Virus record (IMG/VR): IMGVR_UViG_3300010148_000009
DNA from: an uncultured virus (IMG/VR IMGVR_UViG_3300010148_000009)
Taxonomy: Duplodnaviria > Heunggongvirae > Uroviricota > Caudoviricetes
Strand: one strand, 5' to 3'
DNA length: 20,000 bases
Shown one piece after another: positions 7,757-19,381 of the stretch. The number at the start of each line of letters is the position of its first letter. Position 1 is the first letter of the stretch. The notes below the pieces were generated by a model, which was not told the DNA's origin, searched no databases, and worked only from the letters and a program-made list of their open reading frames with translations. Made by a program: the position numbers and the translations under genes.

Positions 7757-7758
7757 CG

Positions 7759-8478: not shown

Positions 8479-8509
8479 CTTTTACCGAAAACTTTGCTAC
8501 ATTATACTT

Positions 8510-8695: not shown

Positions 8696-8697
8696 CC

Positions 8698-8768
8698 TAA
8701 GTTCTTGATAGTCAGGCACTTAGGGCGGCGGCGGCCCGCGACGCAAGTGCTTGATAATCAACGACTTA
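8698..8768. repeat. Paired-palindrome element R2
   Basis: TAAGTtcTTGAtagTCAGgcACTTA - 21 bp GC - CAAGTgcTTGAtaaTCAAcgACTTA. Confidence 0.95.
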
Positions 8769-8780
8769 CGAAAGGCTCGC

Positions 8781-8809
8781 ATTATAACATATAAGCCAAG
8801 AAATGTCAA
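8781..8809 (-). promoter_or_regulatory. Consensus antisense sigma70 promoter pointing into R2
   Basis: Reverse strand TTGACA-17-TATAAT with extended -10 TG. Confidence 0.75.
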
Positions 8810-8912
8810 GAAAAAAAACGCAGATTCGCAAACTTTTTTTCAGTCGTTTTGTGCAATAAAATAGTTGAAAGTTTTTCTTGCAATTTTGCATTTCATGTGT
8901 TACTTTATAGGT

Positions 8913-9140
8913 ATGAATCAGTTAAAAGAAATTAAAAAAGAATTGAACCGAGATCTCGATCTTGGTCTTGCTCTATCCAAAGCCGAGGGAAACCTCAACT
9001 TTCTCGCAGGAGAATCTTCCAAGCAAGATTGGCAATCTTCGATTACTCAAGGTATGGCAATCCTTGACGCTCTCGAAGCCGTCCAAGTTGCTCGCAAGGC
9101 TTGGCAAGAAATCATCCGAGAAAAAAGAGCCGAAAGGTAA
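8913..9140 (+). CDS. Hypothetical helical protein (MNQLKEIKKEL...)
   Basis: Start reassigned to ATG 8913 after TTGCAA-17-TACTTT. Confidence 0.7.
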   Translation: MNQLKEIKKELNRDLDLGLALSKAEGNLNFLAGESSKQDWQSSITQGMAILDALEAVQVARKAWQEIIREKRAER

Positions 9141-9184
9141 TCTTTTCCCTTGCAATTTAACAAAAATTAGTTTAGATTTATAAT

Positions 9185-9331
9185 ATGAAAACAAAAGAAC
9201 AACTACAAAATGATCTTGCTTGGTGGCAAGACAAACTTAACCGATCACGCAAGGAATCGACTCGCTCGATTCGTGCCGTTCATGTGCAATACTTGCAGAG
9301 TGAAATTAAAAAGCTAGAGGATAAATCCTAA
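9185..9331 (+). CDS. 48-aa helical protein (MKTKEQLQNDLAWWQDKLNRS...)
   Basis: Hand-translated; TTGCAA-17-TAGATT-tataat-ATG; resembles the 6760 ORF (DL.W...L..S). Confidence 0.65.
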   Translation: MKTKEQLQNDLAWWQDKLNRSRKESTRSIRAVHVQYLQSEIKKLEDKS

Positions 9332-9387
9332 TGTTTTTTCTTATAATGTTCGCTCTCTCCTGCATCCTTTACTACCAACAAAGCTAA
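9331..9387 (+). CDS. 18-aa hydrophobic micropeptide MFFLIMFALSCILYYQQS
   Basis: TAATG coupling; similar to micro-ORFs at 7706 and 11953. Confidence 0.45.
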   Translation: MFFLIMFALSCILYYQQS

Positions 9388-9394
9388 AAAAATT

Positions 9395-9598
9395 ATGTCA
9401 TCATTCCAAATAAAATCACGAATCAAAGAAGTAAACGCAAGGCTTGCAAAGGCTACCGACTCGCAAGAGATCGCCCAACTAGAGAAGGATCTCCAAGATT
9501 GGAAGAACATTTTGCACGATGTCCAAATGCAAGAGTTTGAAGATCAAGTCGGCTTTAAGTCTATGGAACAAAACGCAGGCGTTTGGGACGAACGCTAA
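9395..9598 (+). CDS. Small coiled-coil protein
   Basis: Heptad-like helical hairpin, co-directional with neighbours. Confidence 0.7.
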   Translation: MSSFQIKSRIKEVNARLAKATDSQEIAQLEKDLQDWKNILHDVQMQEFEDQVGFKSMEQNAGVWDER

Positions 9599-9626
9599 AA
9601 AAAATAAAAAAAAGCTTGACAGTAAA

Positions 9627-9707
9627 ATGTTTGACCTAGTACAAATTCTAATACCCTTTTCAGCTATACTAATACCTTGCCTAATAGTTTGGATTTGGCC
9701 CGCATAA
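9627..9707 (+). CDS. 26-aa hydrophobic micropeptide MFDLVQILIPFSAILIPCLIVWIWPA
   Basis: Internal ATG of track ORF 9519-9707; its TAA stop is the first 3 nt of R3. Confidence 0.45.
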   Translation: MFDLVQILIPFSAILIPCLIVWIWPA

Positions 9708-9775
9708 GTCACTGATAATCAGGCACTTAGGGCGGCGGCGGCCCGCGACGCAAGTGCTTGATAAGCAACGGCTTA
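9705..9775. repeat. Paired-palindrome element R3
   Basis: TAAGTcaCTGAtaaTCAGgcACTTA - 21 bp GC - CAAGTgcTTGAtaaGCAAcgGCTTA. Confidence 0.95.
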
Positions 9776-9787
9776 TGAAACGCTCGC

Positions 9788-9816
9788 ATTATAACATAAA
9801 AGGCAAAAGTTGTCAA
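9788..9816 (-). promoter_or_regulatory. Consensus antisense sigma70 promoter pointing into R3
   Basis: Reverse strand TTGACA-17-TATAAT with TG extension. Confidence 0.75.
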
Positions 9817-9906
9817 GGAAAAAATGCGACTCCATTAAAGTTTTTTTGTGAATAACTTTAGAAGATTTTTCTTGCAATTACTAGGTTTTACCTTTAGATT
9901 TATAAT

Positions 9907-10095
9907 ATGCAATCAAAAGAACTAGCAATCAAAACTCTCGAATCTCGCATCGAGGGAATCCGTAACGCCATTGCAAAGATGCGTAAAGACGCAACTTCTG
10001 CAACCCGTGCCAATATCGAAATGGCAATCGAGATGCTTGCTCTCCCTGAGCTTGCCAAAGTGCAAGCCGAGCTTGCTGAAATCGAAAACTCCTAA
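9907..10095 (+). CDS. Small coiled-coil protein
   Basis: TTGCAA-17-TAGATT-tataat-ATG. Confidence 0.7.
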   Translation: MQSKELAIKTLESRIEGIRNAIAKMRKDATSATRANIEMAIEMLALPELAKVQAELAEIENS

Positions 10096-10099
10096 CACC

Positions 10100-10441
10100 A
10101 TGTTTCAAGCTCAACCATACACCCAAGACATACACGACCAATGCAAGGCATTGGATGATGTCAAGGCAGGTGTTACCTGCAAGAGTAATATCCCATCAGA
10201 TCCTGCTTGGAAGGGTAACGCCAAGCGGTGGCAAGCCCATTGCTCAGGCAATCTCTACGCTCTGACCATACAGAATAGGTCAATGGATCACACCTTTACT
10301 GTACATCAGTACGGCAAGAATGTTTTTCAAGCAGGTCTACGCTACTATCGAGGCTTTAATGTTAAGCATTCAGGCGGGGCATCTTGGACTTGGCAATGCA
10401 CTAAGATAGTCAACGCTCAACTGCTCAAGAATAACGCTTGA
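10100..10441 (+). CDS. Hypothetical protein (MFQAQPYTQD..., 113 aa)
   Basis: Start reassigned to ATG 10100, 4 nt after the upstream stop. Confidence 0.65.
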   Translation: MFQAQPYTQDIHDQCKALDDVKAGVTCKSNIPSDPAWKGNAKRWQAHCSGNLYALTIQNRSMDHTFTVHQYGKNVFQAGLRYYRGFNVKHSGGASWTWQCTKIVNAQLLKNNA

Positions 10442-10447
10442 CAAGCA

Positions 10448-10518
10448 TAAGTTCCTGATAGTCAGGCACTTAGGTGGCGGGCGGCCCGCGACGCAAGTGC
10501 TTGGTAACCAACAACTTA
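10448..10518. repeat. Paired-palindrome element R4
   Basis: TAAGTtcCTGAtagTCAGgcACTTA - 21 bp GC - CAAGTgcTTGGtaaCCAAcaACTTA. Confidence 0.95.
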
Positions 10519-10531
10519 TAAAACGCTTTAC

Positions 10532-10559
10532 ATTATATCATAATTTTTAATTTTGTCAA
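10532..10559 (-). promoter_or_regulatory. Antisense sigma70 promoter pointing into R4
   Basis: Reverse strand TTGACA-16-TATAAT with TG extension. Confidence 0.65.
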
Positions 10560-10690
10560 GTATAATATAAGGTGTTTAGTATTTGTTCTATTTGTTAGTA
10601 TCTCTTATCGCTAGTATTAGATAAATTTAAAAGTTGTATTTAGTGAATTTTTTTCTCGCTATTGTTCGGAAAGTGCTTTAGTCTTTATAT

Positions 10691-10807
10691 ATGAAAACAA
10701 AAAAGATCAAAGTAAGAATCCCAATTCTTTTCACCAAGGCTCGCCCAATGAAGGACAAGTCTAGATATTCACGCAGGGTCAAGCATAAGCAAGCCCTTTC
10801 ATACTAA
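10691..10807 (+). CDS. 38-aa basic peptide with ArfA-like motif (MKTKKIKVRIPILFTKARPMKDKSRYSRRVKHKQALSY)
   Basis: Hand-translated; leaderless promoter geometry; LF...R..K.K..Y.R..KH pattern. Confidence 0.55.
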   Translation: MKTKKIKVRIPILFTKARPMKDKSRYSRRVKHKQALSY

Positions 10808-10825
10808 ACCAAGGAGGACAAAGCA

Positions 10826-11050
10826 ATGGCTAAAGGAGGACATTCCAAAAAGGAAAACCGAAAGATAATGAAGCAAATGAAAAAGTGCAAAGAGATTCGA
10901 GAAATCGCTGAGACTGCAGATGGATACAGCGTTTTCTTGTTCGACAAGAGTATAGACCCTTTTTCAAATCATTGGTCAAGCAATGGATTTCATTCTCTTC
11001 GCAGGTGGTTGAAAAAGCACACAAGTCTCAAAAATTTAACATGGAGCTAA
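10826..11050 (+). CDS. Basic hypothetical protein, possibly HicA-like alpha-beta3-alpha fold
   Basis: Strong AGGAGG SD; the fold is a guess from the residue pattern only. Confidence 0.65.
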   Translation: MAKGGHSKKENRKIMKQMKKCKEIREIAETADGYSVFLFDKSIDPFSNHWSSNGFHSLRRWLKKHTSLKNLTWS

Positions 11051-11051
11051 A

Positions 11052-11237
11052 ATGATCTCAATAAGAAAAAACCCAAACTTTACTCAGTTCTTTCAAGTGT
11101 TTGCATATGGCAAATTTATCGATGAGCTTTTCACTCAAGCAGAAGCTTTAAGGGTTGCAGAAGATGAGGCTAAACTTCGCCAAGTAAAACAAATAAATTT
11201 TCTTGGAAATATCCTTGACATAAAGCCCAAAATGTAA
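11052..11237 (+). CDS. Hypothetical protein
   Basis: Starts 1 nt after the upstream stop. Confidence 0.65.
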   Translation: MISIRKNPNFTQFFQVFAYGKFIDELFTQAEALRVAEDEAKLRQVKQINFLGNILDIKPKM

Positions 11238-11249
11238 GAGAATTAAAAC

Positions 11250-11432
11250 ATGGAAACATTAAAAGAACTCACCGACAGAAAAAACGAACTCGAACAGATC
11301 ATTGATTTTGAGACTGACAACGCAAACGAAGGTTGCGTAAGCTCTCGCCAATTAGTGATAAACTCTCAAATGGAAATTGATTTAATCAATGAAACCATTG
11401 AAGCACTCGCAATCTCTAACTGCTTAGTATAA
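11250..11432 (+). CDS. Small acidic coiled-coil protein
   Basis: TTGACA-17-GAGAAT-taaaac-ATG. Confidence 0.65.
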   Translation: METLKELTDRKNELEQIIDFETDNANEGCVSSRQLVINSQMEIDLINETIEALAISNCLV

Positions 11433-11560
11433 TGACAGACAGAAACCAACAACTCACAGGCAATACTTTACTTATGTATCTTATGAGCCGATTTAATATG
11501 ACCCGTCAAGAAGCCCTCCACTCAATGAGGAGAGCAGGACACAACACCGAAAACCTATGA
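11432..11560 (+). CDS. 42-aa hypothetical protein (MTDRNQQLTGNTLLMYLMSRFNMTRQEALHSM...)
   Basis: Coupled at both ends (TAATG and ATGA overlaps). Confidence 0.6.
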   Translation: MTDRNQQLTGNTLLMYLMSRFNMTRQEALHSMRRAGHNTENL

Positions 11561-11808
11561 GCTATAACGGATGGAAAAATCGTCAGACCTGGAATGTCGC
11601 CCTTTGGATTCAAAACGACGAAGGTCTTTACCACTTCGCGAGAGATTGTCAAGATTATCAGCAATTTGTTGATGACATCAAAGACACTAGCGGAGACTCT
11701 GCAATCGGATACCGCACACCCGACGGTATCGCTTGGAACGATTCAGGGCTTGACACCCCAAGGCTAGACGAGCTAATAAATGAACTAAATGGTTCTGTAA
11801 GTTGTTGA
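11557..11808 (+). CDS. Conserved phage protein with YNGWxNxxTWxVxLW motif
   Basis: Recognisable N-terminal motif of a widespread phage hypothetical family; stop codon lies inside R5. Confidence 0.8.
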   Translation: MSYNGWKNRQTWNVALWIQNDEGLYHFARDCQDYQQFVDDIKDTSGDSAIGYRTPDGIAWNDSGLDTPRLDELINELNGSVSC

Positions 11809-11869
11809 AGTTCAGCCACTTAGGTGGCGGGCCGCCGCCCGCCCCAAGTGCTTGATAGTCAGTCACTTA
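11798..11869. repeat. Paired-palindrome element R5 (at the convergence point of the two arrays)
   Basis: TAAGTtgTTGAagtTCAGccACTTA - 22 bp GC - CAAGTgcTTGAtagTCAGtcACTTA. Confidence 0.95.
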
Positions 11870-11893
11870 GGACGGGGGCTTACGACCACTAAA

Positions 11894-11953
11894 TTAATCT
11901 GTTATATGATACCAAAGAGCAAGCGACATAATACATAATATTAGCAACTCCAT
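11894..11953 (-). CDS. 19-aa hydrophobic micropeptide MELLILCIMSLALWYHITD
   Basis: TAATG coupling; similar to micro-ORFs at 7706 and 9331. Confidence 0.45.
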   Translation of the reverse strand: MELLILCIMSLALWYHITD

Positions 11954-12018
11954 TAACTTGTAAACATTATATAAAATACGAATAGCCAAGGCGAAAGCAA
12001 AAGTATATCCCAAGGCAT
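11953..12018 (-). CDS. 21-aa hydrophobic micropeptide MPWDILLLSPWLFVFYIMFTS
   Basis: Starts 4 nt after the 12023 stop with AAGGA upstream. Confidence 0.45.
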   Translation of the reverse strand: MPWDILLLSPWLFVFYIMFTS

Positions 12019-12022
12019 TTTC

Positions 12023-12271
12023 TTATCCTTTCAAAACGGATTCTACAACAGGACGAGCAACAAGGTTGCGAATTGCAACTCCGTCTCCGTACTGACTACC
12101 TTTGACTACTGACTTGAACGAACGAGTTGCATAGTCGTAGTATGCGTTGACGATTGTACCAACTGCGTTCTTGTAAGAGAACCACATCTTGTCGTCTTGG
12201 CGATTTACTTGTAAAGGTTTGTAAGCCTCTACTGCGTTAGCTTGTTGGGTGAATGAGAACTCTGTTTGCAT
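12023..12271 (-). CDS. Hypothetical protein
   Basis: AAGGA SD upstream; fits the minus-strand array. Confidence 0.7.
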   Translation of the reverse strand: MQTEFSFTQQANAVEAYKPLQVNRQDDKMWFSYKNAVGTIVNAYYDYATRSFKSVVKGSQYGDGVAIRNLVARPVVESVLKG

Positions 12272-12286
12272 AATTATTCCTTTGTT

Positions 12287-12595
12287 TTAGTTTTTATCGT
12301 AAATTCTTCGCATCTCTTCGGAGAGACCAAAGTCTTCGTCTTCCTCGTCAATCTCTTCAGCAGAGTCGGTAAGAAAAAATTGCGACTCGTCTTTCAAGTC
12401 GTTCTCTTGAGCGTCAAGAGTGCCGTGTTCAGAAAGAAACTCCTCTGTTCTTACTTCTTCAACAAAGTGCATAATACTTCTGACATTTATGTTACCAATA
12501 CGCTCTTCAGCTTTCTTCTTAGTAAGCGTTTGGAAATCTTCATGAGCATCACGAATGATTGCGATGCGTTCTTCTTGTGTTAGTTGTGTTTCCAT
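12287..12595 (-). CDS. Acidic hypothetical protein (METQLTQEER...)
   Basis: Start reassigned to 12595 after TTGACA-17-TAAGAT. Confidence 0.7.
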   Translation of the reverse strand: METQLTQEERIAIIRDAHEDFQTLTKKKAEERIGNINVRSIMHFVEEVRTEEFLSEHGTLDAQENDLKDESQFFLTDSAEEIDEEDEDFGLSEEMRRIYDKN

Positions 12596-12620
12596 AATAG
12601 TAATCTTAGTATAATAAGGT

Positions 12621-13016
12621 TTAGTTGTCAAGGTCTAAATCTTTTCTGAAGTCATCCCTGAGATTGTGAAGCAAAGTGACCCAAGCAAAGTCATTGAGTT
12701 GTGCTTGGTGCATAAGTTGGGTAACTTGCACAGGAGTTTGCCAACCAAGCACATCGTCAGAAACAGACAAAGGAAGCATGGTATCTCGATCTTGAAACCA
12801 CATTGCAACTTCGTAAGTGTTGTCGTTAATGTGACCATACAAGCCTGTTCCATCGTTAAGGTTTTGAACAACTGAGATCGTGAACTGATCTTGATTGTCT
12901 TTGTCTCGTTGACCGAAAGAAAGCTTGGCTTGACGAGCCTTGCCTTGCGTGAATCCTCCATGTTGACCGAAAGTCAAATCATCGAAGCCTTTTAGTTTAG
13001 TGTCGTTTTTAATCAT
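12621..13016 (-). CDS. Conserved phage hypothetical protein (FDDLTF...LYG...TYEVA...DDVLGW)
   Basis: Start reassigned to 13016 after TTGTGT-17-TACTAT; motif pattern recalled from small phage proteins. Confidence 0.75.
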   Translation of the reverse strand: MIKNDTKLKGFDDLTFGQHGGFTQGKARQAKLSFGQRDKDNQDQFTISVVQNLNDGTGLYGHINDNTYEVAMWFQDRDTMLPLSVSDDVLGWQTPVQVTQLMHQAQLNDFAWVTLLHNLRDDFRKDLDLDN

Positions 13017-13087
13017 GTTATAATAGTAAGCGATTTTTTGAATTAACACAAGGAAAAAATGCAGAAAAGTGAAAAAAAGTTGTTGTG

Positions 13088-13159
13088 CAAGTCATTGATA
13101 GCCAAGCAGTTGCGCTGCGCGGCGGCCGCCCGCCTAAGTGCTTGACACTCAGGGGTTTA
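13088..13159. repeat. Paired-palindrome element R6
   Basis: CAAGTcaTTGAtagCCAAgcAGTTG - 22 bp GC - TAAGTgcTTGAcacTCAGggGTTTA. Confidence 0.9.
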
Positions 13160-13173
13160 AGTCGGGGCTAGCT

Positions 13174-13521
13174 TCATGGTCTTAGCATATCGTTGTAAAA
13201 TTCTTCGTCAGCTTTCCCGTCATCATTGCGAACTTGAAGCTCAAGGCATTCAGCAGGGAATACATGGCAATGTGCGTCAGCACCATTTTGCTTTATGTAC
13301 CAAGTGGGTGGGTTTTGTGGTTGAACTATCAGCCCAATGAAACTATGCTCAACGAAGTATTTGAGAACAGTTGAGCGACCAATACCATTGATCTTTACTT
13401 CGACCTCTGATCCAATCGCAGGGATCGGTTTGTTTGAAACCCATTGGAGTTTCTCAAACTCGGTGTAAGTCCCTGTAGGGCGTGAAATACTCTTGGTTTC
13501 TACTGCTTCTGTTTTAATCAT
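13174..13521 (-). CDS. Hypothetical protein
   Basis: TTGACA-17-GAGAAT-atactt-ATG. Confidence 0.7.
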   Translation of the reverse strand: MIKTEAVETKSISRPTGTYTEFEKLQWVSNKPIPAIGSEVEVKINGIGRSTVLKYFVEHSFIGLIVQPQNPPTWYIKQNGADAHCHVFPAECLELQVRNDDGKADEEFYNDMLRP

Positions 13522-13533
13522 AAGTATATTCTC

Positions 13534-13707
13534 TCAGTTTTGTTCTGTATTGTCAAGGTTATTCAAAATCTTTCTCCATGCAGAATTAACATCTTTCATG
13601 AATTCGTCAGTAGCCATCGCGGGGTAGACATGGCTTATGTCTTCGGGTTCATAAACATTGATGACATCAAAGACCGCCTTTAATTCTTGTTCAGTTAAGT
13701 TATCCAT
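13534..13707 (-). CDS. 57-aa hypothetical protein (MDNLTEQELK...)
   Basis: Internal ATG of the track ORF, overlapping the upstream stop. Confidence 0.6.
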   Translation of the reverse strand: MDNLTEQELKAVFDVINVYEPEDISHVYPAMATDEFMKDVNSAWRKILNNLDNTEQN

Positions 13708-13873
13708 TTTGTTTTGCCCTCTTGTTTTGATCATCAACAATTTTTGCGAGTCGAAGAAGTTCTGATTGAACATCTTTCTTCGCTTGTGGATCTGCTTTTG
13801 GATTCTTCAACACCTCAACCATTGGAAGGATGAGTGCTGACCATGTTGGTGTGATATCTATCGTTTTTTGCAT
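13700..13873 (-). CDS. 57-aa hypothetical protein (MQKTIDITPTWSALILPMVEVL...)
   Basis: Hand-translated; TTGACA-17-TAGATT-tatatt-ATG. Confidence 0.7.
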   Translation of the reverse strand: MQKTIDITPTWSALILPMVEVLKNPKADPQAKKDVQSELLRLAKIVDDQNKRAKQNG

Positions 13874-13925
13874 AATATAAATCTAAAGTAATTTGTTTTA
13901 ATTGTCAAGGAAATAGTTTGTGAAC

Positions 13926-14000
13926 CTCTTTCTCTCTCCCGAAGGTTGTAGGCGTGTACTGACGCCTCGTTGTTCAATGCTTTTGCATCTACAGAAAGAG
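13926..14000 (-). ncRNA. Putative small structured RNA immediately 3' of the tRNA-like gene
   Basis: Closing stem CTCTTTCT/AGAAAGAG, inner TGTAG/CTACA, AGGCGT/ACGCCT hairpin and a CTTCGG tetraloop. Confidence 0.35.
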
Positions 14001-14001
14001 C

Positions 14002-14117
14002 AGGAGCGTGGGAGATTCGAACTCCCATCTTCAGTCGCTGACCAATGATCAGTTGGCGTGGGCTTACCTAGTATACCACTTGAGAACTGACGCTTTAACC
14101 GATTAAGCTAACGCCCC
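14002..14117 (-). tRNA. tRNA-like gene with a 48-nt branched insert in place of the anticodon loop; identity unresolved
   Basis: Acceptor GGGGCGT/ACGCTCC (G3.U70), D-arm GCTT-AATCGGTTA-AAGC, stem TCAGTT/GACTGA, T-arm GGGAG-TTCGAAT-CTCCC; no encoded CCA; own upstream promoter (TTGTGT at 14175-14180). Confidence 0.8.
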
Positions 14118-14207
14118 ACAAATAAAATTGATTATCAAAAGAACTAAATACAATAATAAAGCAAACTGCAAATAACACAAGGAAAAAATTAAACAAAATG
14201 CATTTTT

Positions 14208-14279
14208 TAAATTGTTGACAGTCAAGCAGTTACGTCGCGCGGCGGCCAGGCACCGAAGTGCCTGATAGTCAAGAACTTA
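14208..14279. repeat. Paired-palindrome element R7
   Basis: TAAATtgTTGAcagTCAAgcAGTTA - 22 bp GC - GAAGTgcCTGAtagTCAAgaACTTA. Confidence 0.9.
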
Positions 14280-14985
14280 CGCCTTCTTTAACGAAGCCTG
14301 TCTCGTCTTTCTTGGCAAGTCCTTTCTCTATAAGCCCAACTACTACCCCTCTCTTGTCAAGGAATCGCAAATCTGATTCGTCACCATCGACAACTTGATA
14401 CCCGTTCCAAGTTTCAGGTAATTGGTTGCGGAAGACAACCGCAACATTGCCACCCATTTGCAAAACAAGTTGAGCGATTTTTTCGTTAGACTCGGAGCAA
14501 GAAAAAGTCAAGTGGTAGTTGCTTGGCAACTCGCCATTGAGAAAGGCTTTCATTCTCTTGAACGACTTTGTATAATCGTAGAATTGAGTTGAGCTATGCT
14601 TCTCAAATAGATTGACTCCGTCTTCATTGATAATGTCTTCCCAAGCAATGTCACTTGTAAGGTTTGGACGAAAAACCGCTTGCATACCTTTTTTAGTTGC
14701 TGACTTAATCGAAGAAGTAATTTCTTTGGATAGTTTTGCAAGGAAGTCGAACCTTTGCTCAAAGAAAAGTTTTGTCTTTGCAATGCGTGAATCTTGAACT
14801 GAATTCATTTGACCACGACCTGCGGTGTTGAGACAAGCCATAGTGCAACCTTTGCTTCTCCATCGGCAAACTTCGTACCCCGAAAGGTTTGCGGGAGCTA
14901 AATGAATTCCTTTGGTAATATATCCAAATGCCTCGCCTTTTGTAATCTTGGCATTTCCTGCGGTGAGTAGAGTTGTCTTAATCAT
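14269..14985 (-). CDS. GP88-like phage protein (Cys-cluster)
   Basis: LLT.GNAKI.KG, LAPA..SGYEVC.W.S.GC...CL..AGRG, FYDYTK, NYHLTFS, DGDESDLRFLD match the gene product 88 family as recalled; stop lies inside R7. Confidence 0.75.
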   Translation of the reverse strand: MIKTTLLTAGNAKITKGEAFGYITKGIHLAPANLSGYEVCRWRSKGCTMACLNTAGRGQMNSVQDSRIAKTKLFFEQRFDFLAKLSKEITSSIKSATKKGMQAVFRPNLTSDIAWEDIINEDGVNLFEKHSSTQFYDYTKSFKRMKAFLNGELPSNYHLTFSCSESNEKIAQLVLQMGGNVAVVFRNQLPETWNGYQVVDGDESDLRFLDKRGVVVGLIEKGLAKKDETGFVKEGVSS

Positions 14986-15048
14986 GTATAAATACTAAGG
15001 CATTTTTTTAGTCATTGCAAGAAAAAAGTTCAACTAAAAGTAAGATTT

Positions 15049-15120
15049 TAAATCGTTGGTAATCAAACACTTACGACGGCGGCGGCCGCGCCGCCTAACT
15101 GCCTGATACTCAGCGACTTA
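15049..15120. repeat. Paired-palindrome element R8
   Basis: TAAATcgTTGGtaaTCAAacACTTA - 22 bp GC - TAACTgcCTGAtacTCAGcgACTTA, followed by CGAAACGC as in R1. Confidence 0.9.
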
Positions 15121-15147
15121 CGAAACGCCAGGTTTTGCTTGGGCAAC

Positions 15148-15178
15148 AAAAAACCCCCCGCCCGATTGGCGAGGGGTT
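15148..15178 (-). terminator. Rho-independent terminator
   Basis: AACCCCTCGCC-AATCG-GGCGGGGGGTTTTTT downstream of the DUF932 gene. Confidence 0.8.
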
Positions 15179-15202
15179 ATTTGGTTGGGGTTGTATTTGT
15201 CC

Positions 15203-16126
15203 TTACTCGTAAAACTCGGCAGGAACTTCCCCATTAACATTTGCACCGATTAGTTCAGCTTCGGTGGCTTCTTCGACTTCATCAACAACATCAACATCAT
15301 CCAAATCAAAGTGGTTTGCCATATCGAAATCGACTTGAGAGTCAAGAACAGAATGCAACGCATCGGATCGAGCAGGGAGGGCAACAAGGTTGCCTTTGTA
15401 TACTTCGGTAAAAGCGTTGTAGAGAGAATTGAGGTTGCGATCACGGAACTCGACATGATCGCTCGACTCCCATTGATTGACTACATCCATAATTTTACTC
15501 TTAGGAATTGCACCTGCTTTGCAAGCTCGGATCACAAGATCGTTGGCAAGAGCATTGCCAAGCTCGAAATCTTGGTAGGCTTCGATCCTTTGATCTTGTC
15601 CGTGCCAAAAGTTGAACAACTTTCCGATTGCTCTATTGATGGTTTGGTTGAGATCGTCAAGAATGTGGCGAGTGTGCCTACGAGCGAGTTTGATCGTATT
15701 GGTAAAGATCAAGTTGTCGCAAACGAAAGGAGCATCACCTGCACACAATCCTGCAGGAAAGGTCTTGTCGTGAGAGTTACGCAATCCGATTACGCAACCA
15801 CGATCAGATTCTGCACGATTAGCGTGATCTACGGCAAACAATCCAAAATAGTGATTGTTTTCTCTAGCGAGGGAGTGAACCTCATCTTGAATGGTGAAAC
15901 CATTGTCTCCCAAAAAACCTCTAGTTCTTTCGACTAGCTCGTGATGAGGAATAGGTTGGTGAGATATGGCAAGCTCGCCTGTCTTCTTGTTAGGTTTGCT
16001 ACGATAGGAAACAGGAGGAGTAGGAACTCCGACTACTTGTTCGTAATCTACCATAGTGCGATTACCTCCACAAATGCTAAGGTTAACAGATTTGCGAGGA
16101 GCGATGTTGTTTTCTTGATTTTCCAT
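15203..16126 (-). CDS. DUF932/DUF945-family protein
   Basis: HQPIPHHEL, GLRNSHDKT...G...FVCDNL...RRHT and NSLYNAFTE are typical of DUF932; acidic C-tail. Confidence 0.8.
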   Translation of the reverse strand: MENQENNIAPRKSVNLSICGGNRTMVDYEQVVGVPTPPVSYRSKPNKKTGELAISHQPIPHHELVERTRGFLGDNGFTIQDEVHSLARENNHYFGLFAVDHANRAESDRGCVIGLRNSHDKTFPAGLCAGDAPFVCDNLIFTNTIKLARRHTRHILDDLNQTINRAIGKLFNFWHGQDQRIEAYQDFELGNALANDLVIRACKAGAIPKSKIMDVVNQWESSDHVEFRDRNLNSLYNAFTEVYKGNLVALPARSDALHSVLDSQVDFDMANHFDLDDVDVVDEVEEATEAELIGANVNGEVPAEFYE

Positions 16127-16165
16127 AGTAATAATAATAGTTGAGTTAGGTTAAAATGTCAAGGA

Positions 16166-16399
16166 TTAATTTCTGTAATTGTTTTCTCCCTCACCTGCGA
16201 TCATGTTTTCGTAGGCAGTAGCTTTTTCAGCGATCATCTTGAAGGTTACCCCTATGACTGCAAGCATCATAGCTTGGTCTTCAGTAAGCTCGCTTTCTTT
16301 AGGCTCAATGAAGTTTTCGAAGATGTACCCCATAGAGGAGTCCATTGCGTCGTTGGCGTTCATTTCGGAATCGGATTGGAAGTCTTTTTTAATGTTCAT
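16166..16399 (-). CDS. Hypothetical protein
   Basis: TTGCAT-17-TAGTAT-tatatc-ATG. Confidence 0.7.
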   Translation of the reverse strand: MNIKKDFQSDSEMNANDAMDSSMGYIFENFIEPKESELTEDQAMMLAVIGVTFKMIAEKATAYENMIAGEGENNYRN

Positions 16400-16471
16400 G
16401 ATATAATACTAAGGGAGTTTTTAATTTTATGCAAGGAAAAAGTGATCTAAAAGGAAAGAAAGTTGATTACG

Positions 16472-16543
16472 TAAGTTGTTACACATCAAGCACTTAGGCG
16501 GCGCGGCGGCCAGGCACCGAAGTGCCTAACCATCAACGACTTA
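16472..16543. repeat. Paired-palindrome element R9
   Basis: TAAGTtgTTACacaTCAAgcACTTA - 22 bp GC - GAAGTgcCTAAccaTCAAcgACTTA. Confidence 0.9.
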
Positions 16544-16545
16544 CA

Positions 16546-16713
16546 TCACTTGGGTTTGCGGTAGTAAAGCATGTTTAACATCTTTGCGTGTTGAGCTTTC
16601 TTTATTTGGTACTCTTCAGATTCGTCTCCTTGTTCTTCTCTTATTGCAAGCATGTGTCCGAATCGACGCAAACTTTCTTGCATAGTGTTTCTCTTTGGTT
16701 TTTCTGTTTTCAT
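16546..16713 (-). CDS. 55-aa hypothetical protein (MKTEKPKRNTMQESLRRFGHML...)
   Basis: Hand-translated; starts 1 nt after the upstream stop; its stop is 2 nt from R9. Confidence 0.6.
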   Translation of the reverse strand: MKTEKPKRNTMQESLRRFGHMLAIREEQGDESEEYQIKKAQHAKMLNMLYYRKPK

Positions 16714-16714
16714 A

Positions 16715-16948
16715 TTACGCTTTGTTTAGAGAAACGATTTGGTCGTAGCGAAACGAACGGACATCACCACGATTGTGGCAAAAGCTCCTAAAGCCTACGA
16801 CAGACTTACCTTCGCTCATGTTTCCAAACTCGTGAATATGTTGTGGTTTTGTGATGGTGTACATCTCGGTTCTTCCATCTTTGGTCGTATAGACGACTTG
16901 GTAGAGTGGGTTGAACCAACGATAGATTTTAGTTAGCATTTTCTTCAT
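16715..16948 (-). CDS. Hypothetical protein with WYL/SH3-like pattern
   Basis: VVYTTKDG...FCHNRGDVRSFRYDQI resembles the WYL-domain C..R...RSFR.DRI motif. Confidence 0.6.
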   Translation of the reverse strand: MKKMLTKIYRWFNPLYQVVYTTKDGRTEMYTITKPQHIHEFGNMSEGKSVVGFRSFCHNRGDVRSFRYDQIVSLNKA

Positions 16949-17168
16949 TCTTCTTTTCTCCTACGGGATTTTGATTGTAATAGTTGTAGATGTCGCAAGC
17001 TTCTTCTGCGTTCTCGCAACTATAAGAAATTATATCTCTTGGAATATCGTATGGAAACCAAGGAGTCTCGGATTCCTCAAAGTACACTTCGTACTTCTCG
17101 CTTTCTTCATTCCAAGTGGGCAAGTCGAGTGGTTTGCCGACACATACTGCTTCTATGTAATTGTTCAT
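16929..17168 (-). CDS. Acidic hypothetical protein
   Basis: TTGACA-17-TATTAT-tataatc-ATG. Confidence 0.7.
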   Translation of the reverse strand: MNNYIEAVCVGKPLDLPTWNEESEKYEVYFEESETPWFPYDIPRDIISYSCENAEEACDIYNYYNQNPVGEKKNEENAN

Positions 17169-17183
17169 GATTATAATAATAGA

Positions 17184-17336
17184 CTACTTGGTTGTTGGTG
17201 TCAAGAGTTTTTTGAATTTTTCTATGAAATGTATAGCGGCAAGAGCTTCGTCTCCGCTTATCTTACCTTGACTCCACATCTCTCTAGCTTCATCATCTAA
17301 TAGTCGTGCTACTTTTTCTATCTTAGTCATACTCAT
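17184..17336 (-). CDS. 50-aa hypothetical protein (MSMTKIEKVARLLDDEAREMW...)
   Basis: Hand-translated; ATGA overlap with the upstream stop. Confidence 0.55.
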   Translation of the reverse strand: MSMTKIEKVARLLDDEAREMWSQGKISGDEALAAIHFIEKFKKLLTPTTK

Positions 17337-17620
17337 AGTGAAGTCGCCTCAGTCCATGAAGATCTTGTTCTCCATTTTTTGTTTGGTTCGTTGTAGTTTC
17401 CTTCTTTGTCCCACCATCCAAACTCTAATACATCACCACCTTGGGTTTTGTCCCAACCTTTGGATAGGTAGTAGTTGTCTAGTTCTTCAATGTCAACCTT
17501 ATGAATATCAGACAACCAACTAGTGTCGAAATCTGAATCTTCATGAATTGTCCCATCTTCATTGACGAGCAGTATCCCAAAAGAACTATCGAATTGCATA
17601 GGTATTAATTCTTCTGTCAT
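17333..17620 (-). CDS. Acidic hypothetical protein
   Basis: Tightly packed minus-strand operon. Confidence 0.65.
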   Translation of the reverse strand: MTEELIPMQFDSSFGILLVNEDGTIHEDSDFDTSWLSDIHKVDIEELDNYYLSKGWDKTQGGDVLEFGWWDKEGNYNEPNKKWRTRSSWTEATSL

Positions 17621-17621
17621 G

Positions 17622-17858
17622 TTAGCAAGGGATTGGTGAGTCTTCGTCTGTATGAATAGTTATGCAAAAATGATCTGCTAACTCTTTGATCATCGTATCT
17701 TTATTGAAATAATTATACGCGAAAGTCAAAAGGTCTTCTTGGTCTTGTGCTGAATGTCCATCTCTGAGTTCATCGTATATCTCAAAGATGTTCATGTTCC
17801 AATTCCAACCTTCTACTCTTGATTCGATTTGTGCTTTAGTCATTTTTAACCTCCTCAA
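17622..17858 (-). CDS. Hypothetical protein (probable start MTKAQ, behind a GGAGG SD)
   Basis: Tightly packed operon. Confidence 0.65.
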   Translation of the reverse strand: MRRLKMTKAQIESRVEGWNWNMNIFEIYDELRDGHSAQDQEDLLTFAYNYFNKDTMIKELADHFCITIHTDEDSPIPC

Positions 17859-18039
17859 TAATTTGTTCCATTTGTTTTAAGACGGACTTCTTGTTACCTT
17901 TGAATCCGTACTCGGCTTTTGCGATTGAATATGCTGATTGACCTCTTCTAGTCATTCCAAGACACTCTAACTTGAGTGCGGATTTGAGACTGAGGAATCG
18001 AAACATATCGATTTGTTCGGGTGTGTCTAATGTTATCAT
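17836..18039 (-). CDS. Phage hypothetical protein (LKSALKLECLGM.RRG.SAY...K...GFKG)
   Basis: TTGACT-17-TAGTAT-tataac-ATG. Confidence 0.75.
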   Translation of the reverse strand: MITLDTPEQIDMFRFLSLKSALKLECLGMTRRGQSAYSIAKAEYGFKGNKKSVLKQMEQIIEEVKND

Positions 18040-18048
18040 GTTATAATA

Positions 18049-18288
18049 CTAGTTGACTTGTTCGGATAAGTCAAGGTTTTTTTCTCTGTTTTTCTTTAAT
18101 TCCCAACTAACATCATAGAGGTACTGACTAACTAGGTCGAGAGATCCCGCTATGTTTTTTAATTGAAATAAAATTTCATCGTTATTCTTTCTGTTCTCAT
18201 AGAGTTCATCTGCAACTCCATTGATTGCATCGGTGATTGAACATCTATCTTCTAGCTTTTTCTTGTGAGCTTCCATTATCTTATTCAT
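18049..18288 (-). CDS. Hypothetical helical protein
   Basis: TAATG coupling. Confidence 0.65.
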   Translation of the reverse strand: MNKIMEAHKKKLEDRCSITDAINGVADELYENRKNNDEILFQLKNIAGSLDLVSQYLYDVSWELKKNREKNLDLSEQVN

Positions 18289-18539
18289 TACTCTACTCCT
18301 AATACTGATTTTAATTGACGGAAATTTTCAGAGGTAATAAAAACTTCACGAACATAGTCATCTGACTCAGCTTCTACTTTTGCTATACGCTCGGCAACAA
18401 ACTTAGCGTGGCATAGTTCTCTTTCTCTCATTCCCCATTTAATAACTAATGGCATCCTGGGAAAGTGTTCCACAAGTTCTTCTAATTGTTTGGAGTCAAC
18501 GAAGCCCCAATGATCTATGATTTCTTTTAATATCTTCAT
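18288..18539 (-). CDS. Hypothetical protein
   Basis: ATGA coupling. Confidence 0.65.
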   Translation of the reverse strand: MKILKEIIDHWGFVDSKQLEELVEHFPRMPLVIKWGMRERELCHAKFVAERIAKVEAESDDYVREVFITSENFRQLKSVLGVE

Positions 18540-18913
18540 GCTGTTAATACTTTGTTGTGTGTTAGTGTTGCGAATCCTGAATAGTATACGGGACTTTCGG
18601 TGTTCTTGTCAACAAAAGAATTGTACTTGTAAGGATTATATGTAACTTGAGTTCCGATCATTACTGTACCACCTATGTCGTCAATCCTGCCCATAATACC
18701 TGCATGAACATTCTTGCGTTTTTCTTTGAGAACTTTTTCTCTACCTTTTTGGTTGACACGGAAACTGCAATCCCACATCTCTAGTTTGTCAGCATGAGCT
18801 TTTACTAGTCCGTCTTGCTTAACTGACCAACAATCTTTGTGGAGATTCTTGTATACAAATACTTTTCGACTAAAGTCGATGTCGTATCTCTTGTCTTCTT
18901 TTGTTCTGATCAT
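18536..18913 (-). CDS. Conserved phage hypothetical protein (VYKNLHK..WSV...GREKVLKEKRKNVHA...VTYNPYK)
   Basis: Recognisable motif set; start reassigned to ATG 18913 after TTGCGT-17-CATTAT. Confidence 0.8.
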   Translation of the reverse strand: MIRTKEDKRYDIDFSRKVFVYKNLHKDCWSVKQDGLVKAHADKLEMWDCSFRVNQKGREKVLKEKRKNVHAGIMGRIDDIGGTVMIGTQVTYNPYKYNSFVDKNTESPVYYSGFATLTHNKVLTA

Positions 18914-18977
18914 GTATATAATAATGACAGATAAAAGGTGTTGACGCAAGGAAAAAGTTCAATTAAAACAACATTTT

Positions 18978-19049
18978 TAAAACCTTAATAGTCAAGCACT
19001 TATGACTCGCGGCCGCCGCGCGCGCAAGTATCTGATAATCAAAGACTTA
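18978..19049. repeat. Paired-palindrome element R10
   Basis: TAAAAccTTAAtagTCAAgcACTTA - 22 bp GC - CAAGTatCTGAtaaTCAAagACTTA. Confidence 0.9.
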
Positions 19050-19072
19050 CAGCACACCTCTTTTCGGGACAC

Positions 19073-19102
19073 AAAAAAACCCCCCACCCGAAGGCAGGGG
19101 GC
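19073..19102 (-). terminator. Rho-independent terminator
   Basis: GCCCCCTGCC-TTCG-GGTGGGGGG-TTTTTTT. Confidence 0.8.
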
Positions 19103-19216
19103 AATCATGAGACATACAAAATGCTTTATTTAATTATTTATTTATATTATTTTTAATTTTATAATATTTTTTATAATTTAGAATGTTTTGTATTTATTAT
19201 TGTTATTTATTCTATA

Positions 19217-19285
19217 CTATTCTGCTTCTAATATCCATTTAATTCCTAATACTATAGCTAATGTAATGATTAATATAATTTCCAT
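19217..19285 (-). CDS. 22-aa hydrophobic micropeptide MEIILIITLAIVLGIKWILEAE
   Basis: Only ORF seen between a TTGACA-17-TAGATT promoter (about 19306-19334) and the 19073 terminator. Confidence 0.45.
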   Translation of the reverse strand: MEIILIITLAIVLGIKWILEAE

Positions 19286-19336
19286 ATAATTTATTGTAGT
19301 ATAATAATCTAAAGTAAAATGCGCGAAATGTCAAAT

Positions 19337-19381
19337 AAAAAACCTCCCCCCGCTTAAACATAGCAAAAAACGAGGAGAGGT
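19337..19381 (-). terminator. Terminator closing the non-coding transcript
   Basis: ACCTCTCCTCG...CGGGGGGAGGT followed by a T-run. Confidence 0.65.

What the first reader, a model, noticed from the sequence alone, without database searches (positions are those of the whole stretch)
14002..14117. tRNA-like RNA with the anticodon loop replaced by a two-hairpin 48-nt domain and a G3.U70 pair
Seen: intact acceptor, D and T arms. Between TCAGTT and GACTGA lies CTCAA-[GTGG..CCAC hairpin]-GCCAA-[CTGATC-ATT-GGTCAG]-C instead of a 7-nt loop. The acceptor has G3.U70, the discriminator is U, and CCA is not encoded. Established: G3.U70 is the AlaRS identity element of tRNA-Ala and tmRNA (normally with A73), and bacterial tRNA introns are self-splicing and far longer than 48 nt. 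Inference: a non-decoding tRNA mimic (decoy for anticodon nucleases or tRNA-sensing defences, or a minimal tmRNA-like rescue RNA), or a tRNA with an unusual short protein-spliced intron (the insert starts CTCAAG, like a Leu-CAA loop). It is the first gene of the R6-R7 cassette.
Basis: partly seen in the sequence, partly recalled or inferred. Interest (0 to 1): 0.75.

Follow-up and report, generated by a model that had tools for sequence, protein, structure and literature searches.

The report
tRNA-shaped domain of composite phage RNA
An uncultured marine phage encodes a roughly 230-base non-coding RNA in which a tRNA-shaped piece carries two conserved hairpins instead of an anticodon loop and is joined to a second folded RNA that also occurs on its own in some tiny-genome bacteria; no RNA catalogue lists it and its job is unknown.

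Summary
A tRNA-shaped RNA lies on the minus strand at 14117..14002 (Rfam tRNA 55.7 bits), with a 49-nt insert in place of the anticodon loop.

- The second hairpin is CCAA-[CUGAUCA]-UUGG, not CUGAUC/GGUCAG (covariation).
- G3.U70 is not conserved: 8 of 38 distinct relatives.

It is not a decayed gene. 38 distinct relatives keep the insert, while the tRNA arms change by compensatory substitutions.

It is unlikely to decode:
- Positions 32-38 are base-paired in 37 of 38 relatives.
- No single excision rule gives a consistent anticodon.
- No uninterrupted version of either tRNA body searched was found.

It is one domain of a larger unit: conserved leader, tRNA-shaped domain, then at +1 a 77-nt four-way-junction RNA (13925-14001).
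- That junction RNA abuts tRNA-shaped 3' ends in 53 of 64 distinct viral units.
- It stands alone, with promoter and terminator, in some Patescibacteria.
- It matches no Rfam family.

Both insert loops carry 6-nt self-complementary words that change yet stay self-complementary. This suggests loop-loop pairing in trans.

Function is unproven and no expression data cover the RNA.

The parts
14153..14180 (-). Putative promoter of the unit: -35 TTGTGT (14180..14175), 16-nt spacer, -10 TATTAT (14158..14153).
   Evidence: Placed by alignment with relatives that have TTGACT-17-CATAAT at the same place. The consensus scan did not flag it in the window. Inference.
14118..14146 (-). Conserved leader of about 29 nt (UAGUUCUUUUGAUAAUCAAUUUUAUUUGU). 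Its last five bases, UUUGU (14122..14118), are the 5' strand of a leader-tail helix H0.
   Evidence: The leader is nearly invariant across relatives whose tRNA arms differ. For H0. The 5' end is inferred from the promoter, not measured.
14002..14117 (-). tRNA-shaped domain, 116 nt: acceptor 14117-14111/14009-14003, D arm 14108-14092, T arm 14026-14010, discriminator U at 14002, no CCA.
   Evidence: Rfam tRNA 55.7 bits. Family model R1 scores 108 bits. Acceptor, D and T helices co-vary.
14031..14090 (-). Extended 'anticodon' stem (14090-14085 with 14036-14031) closing a three-way junction. It includes a pair at tRNA positions 32-38.
   Evidence: The 32-38 pair is formed in 37 of 38 distinct sequences (UA 17, CG 16, UG 4).
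14058..14079 (-). Hairpin P1: stem GUGG/CCAC and 14-nt loop UAUACUAGGUAAGC (14075-14062) holding the CUAG word.
   Evidence: 3 of 4 pairs change on both sides. Loop variants are listed. N-CUAG-N' flanks are complementary in 36 of 48 occurrences.
14042..14056 (-). Hairpin P2: stem CCAA/UUGG and 7-nt loop CUGAUCA (14052-14046) holding the palindrome UGAUCA.
   Evidence: 4 of 4 pairs change on both sides. The palindrome is present in 36 of 38 distinct sequences.
13925..14001 (-). Four-way-junction RNA domain starting at +1 after the discriminator. H1 is 14000-13994 with 13932-13926. Hairpin a is 13989-13976, hairpin b 13966-13951 and hairpin c 13945-13938. Junction strands are UGUA, GAACAACGA, UACAA and AGAGA.
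   Evidence: Model R2 scores 62.6 bits, E 9.5e-17. H1, hairpin a and hairpin c co-vary in 81 distinct sequences; hairpin b never varies. No Rfam match.
13917..13921 (-). Tail strand ACAAA of helix H0, pairing with leader UUUGU (14122-14118).
   Evidence: Leader classes GUUAU, UUUAU and AUUAU have tails AUAAC or AUAA instead of ACAA. One relative has 10 contiguous pairs. Moderate support.
14185..14280 (.). 96-nt dispersed repeat (6 copies in the window) that bounds the cassette upstream of the unit.
   Evidence: Repeat family D1.

Best explanation
The 116 bases are the tRNA-shaped domain of a composite, non-coding phage RNA of about 230 nt.

Shown:
- The acceptor, D and T arms are kept as a fold, while their sequences differ freely between phages.
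- The anticodon arm is replaced by a longer stem that opens into a three-way junction bearing two hairpins, whose loops are almost invariant.
- Directly after the discriminator base begins a second, very conserved four-way-junction RNA.
- A short helix between the leader and the tail probably closes the whole unit.

Inferred:
- The RNA does not decode. The tRNA shape serves as a rigid, nuclease-resistant and enzyme-recognisable scaffold.
- The two loops, each carrying a self-complementary 6-nt word of about -5 kcal/mol, pair with the same loops of other copies (kissing loops). The RNA would then act as a dimer or larger assembly.

Not known:
- Whether host RNase P and RNase Z later cut the three parts apart.
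- What the assembly or the four-way-junction domain binds.
For: tRNA shape:
- Rfam 55.7 bits.
- Covariation in the acceptor (6 of 7 pairs), D (3 of 4) and T (4 of 5) helices among 38 distinct sequences.

Non-decoding:
- The 32-38 pair is formed in 37 of 38 sequences and co-varies.
- The next pair inward is formed in 23 of 38.
- ARAGORN's intron-mode anticodons are inconsistent within one body lineage.
- A related unit (L267) has a 9-bp hairpin with a tetraloop in place of the anticodon arm.
- Bona fide tRNA-Met genes in relatives encode CCA. In the alignments, none of the insert-bearing RNAs continues with CCA.
- 0 uninterrupted copies of either body were found in viral contigs, although interrupted ones are there (against 22 and 58).

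Composite unit:
- Leader and 3' domain are conserved across relatives with different tRNA arms.
- The 3' domain matches model R2 at 13925-14001 and co-varies.
- A T-loop lies at a fixed 29-34 nt before the junction in 53 of 64 distinct viral units.
- The leader-tail helix shows compensatory classes.

Self-complementary loops:
- P1 has a full 6-nt palindrome in 33 of 38 sequences and P2 in 36 of 38.
- P1 variants ACUAGU, ACAUGU and UCUAGA, and P2 variants UGAUCA, UAGCUA, UAAUUA and GUAAUUAC, all remain palindromic.
- Flanks of CUAG are Watson-Crick complementary in 36 of 48 occurrences, using all four pair types.
- Computed self-duplex energies are -4.6 to -5.8 kcal/mol for all variants but UAAUUA.
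Against: - No expression, end-mapping or oligomer data exist. Contigs of 4 RNA-library runs did not cover 14004-14620.
- The window's own P1 word is ACUAGG, only a 4-nt palindrome.
- The covarying N-CUAG-N' flanks could equally be an intramolecular pair closing a CUAG loop.
- Palindromic hexamers in the wider set are only modestly enriched: 113 observed against 83.7 +/- 8.5 in shuffles, maximum 110 of 200.
- Alignments A3 and A6 were fitted to the models, and many sequences are close kin, so pair counts lean towards the structures.
- The leader-tail helix is short (mostly 4-5 bp). Its covariation rests on 5 of 33 distinct units.
- A tRNA shape with no CCA followed by a structured trailer also fits a plain processing signal.
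Confidence: 0.55

Rival explanations
1. Processing handle only. The tRNA shape is there so that host RNase P and RNase Z cut the primary transcript and release the four-way-junction RNA with an exact 5' end. In Patescibacteria the same RNA gets that end from its own promoter. On this reading the insert hairpins are secondary.
For: - The 4WJ domain starts at +1 after the discriminator. A T-loop lies at a fixed distance in 53 of 64 distinct viral units, against 6 of 51 in the genome set.
- Stand-alone copies in Patescibacteria sit a few bases after a promoter-like TTGACA...TATAAT and end with a terminator hairpin.
- No CCA is encoded.
Against: - The insert loops are more conserved than the tRNA arms, which a mere handle does not need.
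- The leader is conserved and seems to pair with the tail next to the acceptor stem. That would hinder RNase P rather than help it (established for leader-trailer pairing in pre-tRNAs; recalled).
- Not exclusive with the best explanation.
Confidence: 0.2
2. The four-way-junction domain is a new self-cleaving ribozyme. It cuts at its own 5' end and so trims the 3' end of the tRNA-shaped RNA, as proposed for theta (HDV-like) ribozymes next to phage tRNAs.
For: - It has the same position as theta ribozymes, which lie within 5 nt of tRNA 3' ends (Kienbeck et al. 2024, PMC10879173; passages read).
- Helix H1 starts right after the putative cut.
- 23 junction bases are almost invariant.
- In viral units the first base is G in 49 of 62.
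- Its sporadic spread, 4 of 151 sampled Patescibacteria genomes, resembles that of small ribozymes (recalled).
Against: - No Rfam ribozyme family matches, even at E up to 10.
- My manual threading onto the HDV-like nested double pseudoknot failed: the partner of the first strand lies at the very 3' end, after three hairpins.
- The putative cut lies 7 bp from the conserved junction.
- Stand-alone copies have almost nothing upstream to release.
Confidence: 0.12
3. A real tRNA with a new kind of short intron, removed by an unknown phage or host enzyme, like the 'enigmatic introns' reported in Lak megaphage tRNAs.
For: - ARAGORN in intron mode accepts it: Leu-CAA with a 41-nt intron.
- The bodies differ as isoacceptors would, and one has a long variable arm (L015).
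- Precedent: Devoto et al. 2019, PMC6784885, passages read.
Against: - The called anticodons differ within one body lineage (Val, Lys, Ala, Ile).
- The supposed loop bases 32/38, and in many 33/37, co-vary as pairs.
- L131 and L001 lack U33 in either register (by inspection).
- L033 and L154 differ in the 3' junction.
- No intron-less allele was found.
- No RtcB, Rnl or tRNA-intron endonuclease family appeared among 98 ORFs of a 76%-complete relative.
Confidence: 0.08
4. A decoy or sponge. The tRNA body or the anticodon-loop-like P2 hairpin binds a host tRNA-directed nuclease, a modification enzyme or a host tRNA anticodon, and protects the phage.
For: - tRNA arms diverge fast while the fold is kept, as expected in an arms race.
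- P2 has a 4-bp stem and a 7-nt loop beginning Y-U, like an anticodon loop.
- The unit lies among early accessory cassettes.
- Phage tRNAs that evade anticodon nucleases are known (PMC10264068, search listing only).
Against: - Nothing links the RNA to a defence gene.
- The loop sequence is fixed while the bodies vary, the opposite of mimicry of a particular tRNA.
Confidence: 0.08
5. The palindromic words act in DNA, for instance as sites for a dimeric DNA-binding or cutting protein, and the RNA fold is incidental.
For: The words (ACTAGT, TCTAGA, TGATCA, TAATTA) are typical 6-bp palindromic sites. The leader also holds a DNA palindrome, TTGATAATCAA.
Against: - A sequence-specific protein would not tolerate the observed changes of word.
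- The stems around the words co-vary, which selects for a hairpin in single strands.
- The words sit in loops of an RNA-model-supported fold.
Confidence: 0.03

Closest known systems
Transfer RNA (Rfam RF00005)
   Same: 7-bp acceptor stem, D arm with GG, T arm with GUUCGAAUC, 4-nt variable region, L-shape signature; scores 55.7 bits.
   Different: - No 7-nt anticodon loop; positions 32-38 are paired.
- A 49-nt two-hairpin insert.
- No CCA.
- Embedded between a conserved leader and a second RNA domain.
tRNA genes with 'enigmatic introns' in Lak megaphages (Devoto et al. 2019, PMC6784885; passages read)
   Same: Phage tRNA-like genes enlarged by a highly conserved insert in the anticodon region that matched no known intron class.
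   Different: - Lak inserts were seen in alleles with and without the insert, and a normal anticodon is restored on removal. Neither holds here.
- Different phages and habitat.
- I did not compare sequences; their supplementary tables were not opened.
Theta ribozymes, minimal HDV-like ribozymes beside phage tRNA genes (Kienbeck et al. 2024, PMC10879173; passages read)
   Same: A conserved folded RNA begins within a few bases of the 3' end of a phage tRNA-shaped RNA.
   Different: - The domain here is a four-way junction, not a nested double pseudoknot.
- No Rfam HDV-type match.
- It also occurs alone in bacterial genomes.
tmRNA tRNA-like domain
   Same: A tRNA-shaped acceptor/T-arm module whose anticodon arm is replaced. 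The window copy has G3.U70.
   Different: - A true D stem is present.
- No tag reading frame or pseudoknots.
- G3.U70 in only 8 of 38 relatives.
- No CCA.
- No tmRNA model hit.
Self-assembling bacterial and phage RNAs (ROOL, GOLLD, OLE: PMC12286853, listing and abstract only; manA 60-mer cage: preprint 10.64898/2026.07.01.735769, abstract and outline only), and the palindromic dimerisation loop of HIV-1 (recalled)
   Same: Structured RNAs, often phage-borne and near tRNAs, that use loop-loop contacts between identical molecules. A manA RNA lies 5.4 kb away in the same window.
   Different: - Assembly of this RNA is only inferred from self-complementary loops.
- It is much smaller than ROOL or GOLLD and unrelated in sequence.

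Membership tests
tRNA (decoding) | Cloverleaf with acceptor, D and T arms | tested here: met
   Rfam RF00005 55.7 bits; covariation in all three helices.
tRNA (decoding) | 5-bp anticodon stem closed by a 7-nt loop with U33 and an unpaired 32-38 | tested here: not met
   49-nt insert. The 32-38 pair is formed in 37 of 38 sequences. ARAGORN default finds no gene.
tRNA (decoding) | 3' CCA and aminoacylation | not testable with these tools
   CCA is not encoded; post-transcriptional addition and charging need experiments.
Intron-containing tRNA (protein-spliced, bulge-helix-bulge type) | Excision restores one consistent anticodon loop across relatives; bulge-helix-bulge at the exon-intron borders | tested here: not met
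   Intron-mode calls give four different anticodons within one body lineage. No two 3-nt bulges separated by 4 bp were seen by inspection and 37 alignments.
Group I intron in tRNA | Catalytic core of about 200 nt or more | tested here: not met
   The insert is 49 nt. No Intron_gpI match at E up to 10.
tmRNA | Conserved G3.U70, tag reading frame, pseudoknots, CCA end | tested here: not met
   G.U in 8 of 38 relatives. No tmRNA hit in the window. The same model does detect a mini tRNA-like domain in L205, which serves as a positive control.
HDV-like / theta ribozyme (for the 3' domain) | Nested double pseudoknot P1-P2-P3-P1'-P4-P2' with a catalytic C in J4/2 | tested here: not met
   The helix order found by covariation is H1-a-b-c-H1'. 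No Rfam HDV-type hit. The threading was by hand only.
Self-cleaving ribozyme of any class (for the 3' domain) | Site-specific self-scission | not testable with these tools
   Needs an in vitro cleavage assay.
Bacterial SRP RNA / 6S RNA (for the stand-alone Patescibacteria copies) | Match to RF00169 or RF00013 | tested here: inconclusive
   The 4WJ locus matches neither. Neither family was found anywhere in the 5 genomes, so they give no contrast. The low prevalence, 4 of 151 genomes, argues against a housekeeping RNA.

The most novel reading that the evidence does not exclude
A new class of small 'ornate' phage RNA. A tRNA-shaped scaffold presents two different self-complementary kissing loops, so that copies join P1-to-P1 and P2-to-P2 into dimers, rings or chains. 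A fused four-way-junction domain, shared with stand-alone small RNAs of Patescibacteria, provides a second, still unknown activity, possibly catalytic. The same accessory region of the phage also carries a manA RNA, a motif reported in a preprint to build 60-subunit RNA cages. These phages may therefore deploy several self-assembling RNAs early in infection.
Probability: 0.3. Interest if true: 0.85.

Novelty: new variant of a known kind. Interest (0 to 1): 0.72.

Why it matters
tRNA-shaped RNAs that cannot decode are known only as scattered cases. This one is a well-populated family with clear rules: a fold kept while the sequence is free, an invariant two-hairpin insert, and strict fusion to a second conserved RNA.

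- It gives a concrete, testable candidate for natural RNA-RNA self-association in a 116-230-nt RNA.
- It uncovers an uncatalogued four-way-junction RNA shared by many phages and some Patescibacteria.
- It warns annotators that 'tRNA with intron' calls in phage genomes can be non-decoding structural RNAs.

Tried and rejected
- **Expression or splicing from public runs.** 20 runs hold part of the stretch. The 4 RNA-library runs, kept as contigs, gave no cover of 14004-14620, so nothing can be said. One 180-nt contig of run X18 covers 13944-14003 and runs on for 102 letters into what reads like the T arm of a different relative. This may be DNA carry-over and is no proof of transcription.
- **A single splicing rule.** I tried registers with 2+5, 3+4, 5+2 and 6+1 loop bases by hand. 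None gave U33, a purine at 37 and a constant anticodon within lineages.
- **Stop-codon suppressor idea.** Window UCA, L024 CUA and L033 UUA came out under different rules. Dropped as not consistent (L154 against L033).
- **Known ribozymes or riboswitches.** No Rfam hit.
- **Splicing or repair enzymes in a relative.** None among 98 ORFs. ORFs under 100 aa and the missing 24% of the genome were not seen.
- **Close cultured phage.** No DNA match. Only distant protein matches, so the host is unknown.
- **The 4WJ RNA as SRP or 6S RNA of Patescibacteria.** Inconclusive. A recalled SRP motif scan was no better than its reversed control.
- **Riboswitch reading of stand-alone copies.** Rejected. Downstream genes differ in the 5 genomes looked at.
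- **Pairing of the P1 loop with the D loop, the leader or the 3' domain.** By eye, not conserved.
- **Literature.** Nothing describing this RNA in searches.
- **Own genome.** Not held. The nearest record, G001, is a 4.9-kb fragment without the RNA.

Full report
**1. What is there**

Read on the minus strand, window 14117..14002 is a 116-nt tRNA-shaped RNA.
- Rfam's tRNA model matches end to end at 55.7 bits (E 8.6e-10; gathering 29), with 49 extra bases where the 7-nt anticodon loop should be.
- ARAGORN finds no tRNA in the whole window by default. Only in intron mode does it call Leu-CAA with a 41-nt intron.
- No other Rfam family matches 13700-14400 up to E = 10 or 6000-20000 up to E = 1, apart from chance-level hits and a manA RNA at 19534-19743.
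- The lone-sequence fold is not unusual (z -1.48).
The second hairpin is not (section 3).

**2. Setting**

The window is part of an uncultured marine phage.
- It carries a T4-type terminase, PhoH, a GP88-family protein and an L5 gp82-like protein.
- It has no DNA match in the phage collection and only distant protein matches.
- The RNA is the first unit after a 96-nt dispersed repeat (14185-14280), one of six copies that bound small cassettes.

**3. Relatives**

- The neighbouring GP88 protein led to 80 loci out of 155 matches.
- ARAGORN in intron mode found enlarged tRNAs in 15 of these 80 loci.
- A covariance model built from 11 sequences found strong matches (79-130 bits) in 11 of the 80 loci, plus the window, and weaker ones in variant forms.
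- A pattern scan of metagenome contigs added 41 stretches.
- Together these give 52 matches and 38 distinct sequences.
- Each of three larger relatives' contigs holds one strong copy.

The tRNA arms differ between lineages by compensatory changes. Pairs changed on both sides: acceptor 6 of 7, D 3 of 4, T 4 of 5. One relative has a long variable arm (L015).

The insert is the constant part.
- P1 is a 4-bp stem (3 of 4 pairs co-vary) with a 14-nt loop.
- P2 is a 4-bp stem (4 of 4 co-vary: CCAA/UUGG against GCGA/UCGU) with a 7-nt loop.
- Both helices are paired in 100% of cells.

Caveat: the alignment was fitted to the model and many rows are close kin.

**4. Not Ala-like, not tmRNA-like, not a pseudogene**

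- The 3-70 pair is C-G in 27, G.U in 8 and G-C in 3 of 38 distinct sequences. Near-identical kin of the window have G-C (L188, L177).
- No tmRNA model hit occurs here. The model does find a 64-nt tRNA-like-domain-only element in locus L205, so it works.
- Conservation of the insert excludes decay.

**5. Does it decode?**

Evidence against:
- The pair at tRNA positions 32-38 is formed in 37 of 38 sequences (UA 17, CG 16, UG 4), and 31-39 co-varies CG 19 / UA 19.
- A further pair is formed in 23 of 38. The stem is therefore 6-7 bp and opens into a three-way junction.
- ARAGORN's anticodons differ inside one body lineage: Val, Lys, Ala, Ile.
- No hand-tried excision rule gives U33, a purine at 37 and a stable anticodon.
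- In a related unit the arm is simply a 9-bp hairpin with a tetraloop (L267).
- Normal tRNA-Met genes of relatives encode CCA. In the alignments, none of the insert-bearing RNAs continues with CCA.
- Uninterrupted versions of two bodies were sought in viral contigs and not found, 0 and 0, although interrupted ones that fit the same flanking words are present.
- No RtcB, Rnl-type ligase or tRNA-intron endonuclease family appeared among 98 ORFs of 100 aa or more on a 103-kb relative contig, 76% complete.

Splicing cannot be excluded without RNA data, but nothing supports it.

**6. A larger unit**

Flanks are more conserved than the tRNA arms.

Upstream:
- Relatives have TTGACT-17-CATAAT. The window has TTGTGT-16-TATTAT (14180-14153; my alignment, not flagged by the scan).
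- A leader of about 29 nt follows.

Downstream, starting at the base after the discriminator, lies a 77-nt four-way junction (13925-14001):
- Order of elements: H1, then UGUA, hairpin a, GAACAACGA, hairpin b (GGCG..CGCC), UACAA, hairpin c, AGAGA, then H1'.
- A second model scores the window at 62.6 bits.
- That model collects 101 matches, 81 distinct. H1 (7 of 7 pairs), hairpin a (3 of 3) and hairpin c (4 of 4) change on both sides. Hairpin b never varies. 94.9% of cells are paired, against 65.7% in shuffles.

The leader's last bases pair with the tail just after the junction RNA.
- In the window this is UUUGU 14122-14118 with ACAAA 13921-13917.
- Leader classes ending GUUAU, UUUAU and AUUAU have tails AUAAC or AUAA. 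One relative has 10 contiguous pairs.
- This helix is short and only moderately supported.

**7. Reach of the junction RNA**

- Its core words occur in 108 stretches of viral contigs, of which 80 were fetched.
- In 53 of 64 distinct upstream contexts, a tRNA T-loop lies 29-34 nt before the junction. The domain thus abuts a tRNA-shaped 3' end.
- Those tRNA-shaped RNAs carry many different inserts.
- In the species-genome collection the words occur in 88 stretches. One group, in Bradyrhizobium and others, sits in GC-rich sequence that looks coding and was set aside untested.
- The Patescibacteria hits are stand-alone small genes with promoter-like and terminator-like flanks. There is one per genome in 5 of 5 examined, and the neighbours differ.
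- Only 6 of 51 distinct genome contexts have the tRNA-shaped partner.
- The model found it in 4 of 151 sampled Patescibacteria genomes, under strict filters. It is therefore sporadic, not housekeeping.
- It matches no Rfam family.
- In viral copies the first base is G in 49 of 62 and the base after H1' is G in 60 of 62.

**8. The loops**

- P1 holds ACUAGU in 31 sequences, ACAUGU in 1, UCUAGA in 1 and ACUAGG in 5 (the window's lineage). That is a full 6-nt palindrome in 33 of 38.
- P2 holds UGAUCA in 35, UAGCUA in 1 and CGAUCA in 2, a full palindrome in 36 of 38.
- Variant families have UCUAGA in P1, and UAAUUA, GUAAUUAC or UGAUCA in P2.
- Across 56 distinct viral units, CUAG occurs 48 times. 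Its flanks are Watson-Crick complementary in 36 of 48, using all four pair types (AU 19, UA 11, GC 4, CG 2). GAUC occurs 32 times, 17 of them flanked U..A.
- Computed self-duplexes are -4.6 to -5.8 kcal/mol for all variants but UAAUUA (-0.4).
- Against over-reading: palindromic hexamers overall are only modestly enriched (113 against 83.7 +/- 8.5). The flank covariation could also be an intramolecular closing pair.
- Changes in the two central bases that keep self-complementarity (UGAUCA to UAGCUA to UAAUUA; CUAG to CAUG) are better explained by pairing between two copies.

**9. How it most likely works**

Shown:
- A conserved composite fold: leader, tRNA shape with a two-hairpin junction, and a four-way junction.

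Inferred:
- The tRNA shape is a scaffold that cannot decode.
- The hairpin loops pair in trans with the same loops of other copies.
- The second domain has its own, unknown role.
- Cutting by RNase P and RNase Z, or self-cleavage by the junction RNA as proposed for theta ribozymes (PMC10879173, passages), remain open. They are listed as rivals.

**10. Known things and novelty**

- Closest in print are the unexplained conserved inserts in Lak megaphage tRNAs (PMC6784885, passages) and the theta ribozymes beside phage tRNAs.
- Self-assembling ROOL, GOLLD and manA RNAs are functional analogies only (abstracts).
- My searches found no description of this RNA. Supplements of these papers were not opened.
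I read it after I had found the loops, the flanks and the anchor domain. It gave me the Lak reference, and note e1-5374615 gave the theta-ribozyme reference.

**Verdict**

This is a real member of an uncatalogued family of non-decoding, tRNA-shaped phage RNAs. The mechanism is proposed, not shown.

Noticed in passing
window 19534-19743 (-): A manA RNA motif (Rfam RF01745, 79.1 bits) lies in the same accessory region. A 2026 preprint (10.64898/2026.07.01.735769, abstract and outline only) reports that manA RNAs form 60-subunit cages.
   Followed up: partly
L205:46-109 (-), contig IMGVR_UViG_3300009103_000148: A 64-nt element directly after a second insert-bearing tRNA-shaped RNA. It matches only the two ends of Rfam's tmRNA model (59.1 bits): a tRNA-like domain with G3.U70 and encoded CCA, but no tag region.
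   Followed up: partly
L195, L197, L201, L211, L214, L215, L224, L227 and L212, L213, L216, L220, L233, L234 (about positions 90-215 of each locus): Other phages carry tRNA-shaped elements of about 150 nt, some within tRNA arrays. They share the P1-loop motif GAUAUUCUAGAUAAAGUA but have different, larger inserts, and in the first group no four-way-junction domain follows. None is recognised by Rfam at E <= 0.01.
   Followed up: partly
window 6000-19100; repeat copies at 11775, 13065, 14185, 15026, 16449, 18955 and 7759, 8698, 9705, 10448: Two families of 96-120-nt GC-rich palindromic repeats separate small cassettes. Each cassette has a TTGAC..TATA-type promoter placed so close to the ATG that the mRNAs would be leaderless (reading). 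Earlier scan notes compare such borders with T4-type PeSL elements.
   Followed up: no
L246:9969-10745 (-) in relative genome G002: A 258-aa protein with the C-terminal domain of arginyl-tRNA-protein transferase (PF04377, E 9e-9). The same contig has PSCyt2/PSD1/DUF1501 genes and five sulfotransferases, typical of Planctomycetota-like hosts. An aminoacyl-tRNA-using transferase beside a non-decoding tRNA shape may or may not be a coincidence.
   Followed up: no
L268:142-226 and 302-385: Two tandem copies of the four-way-junction RNA in one viral contig.
   Followed up: no
window 13858-14028 (-): A 56-aa ORF starts inside the T arm and runs through the whole four-way-junction domain. Stem covariation and hairpin-length changes in relatives make it unlikely to be coding.
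   Followed up: partly
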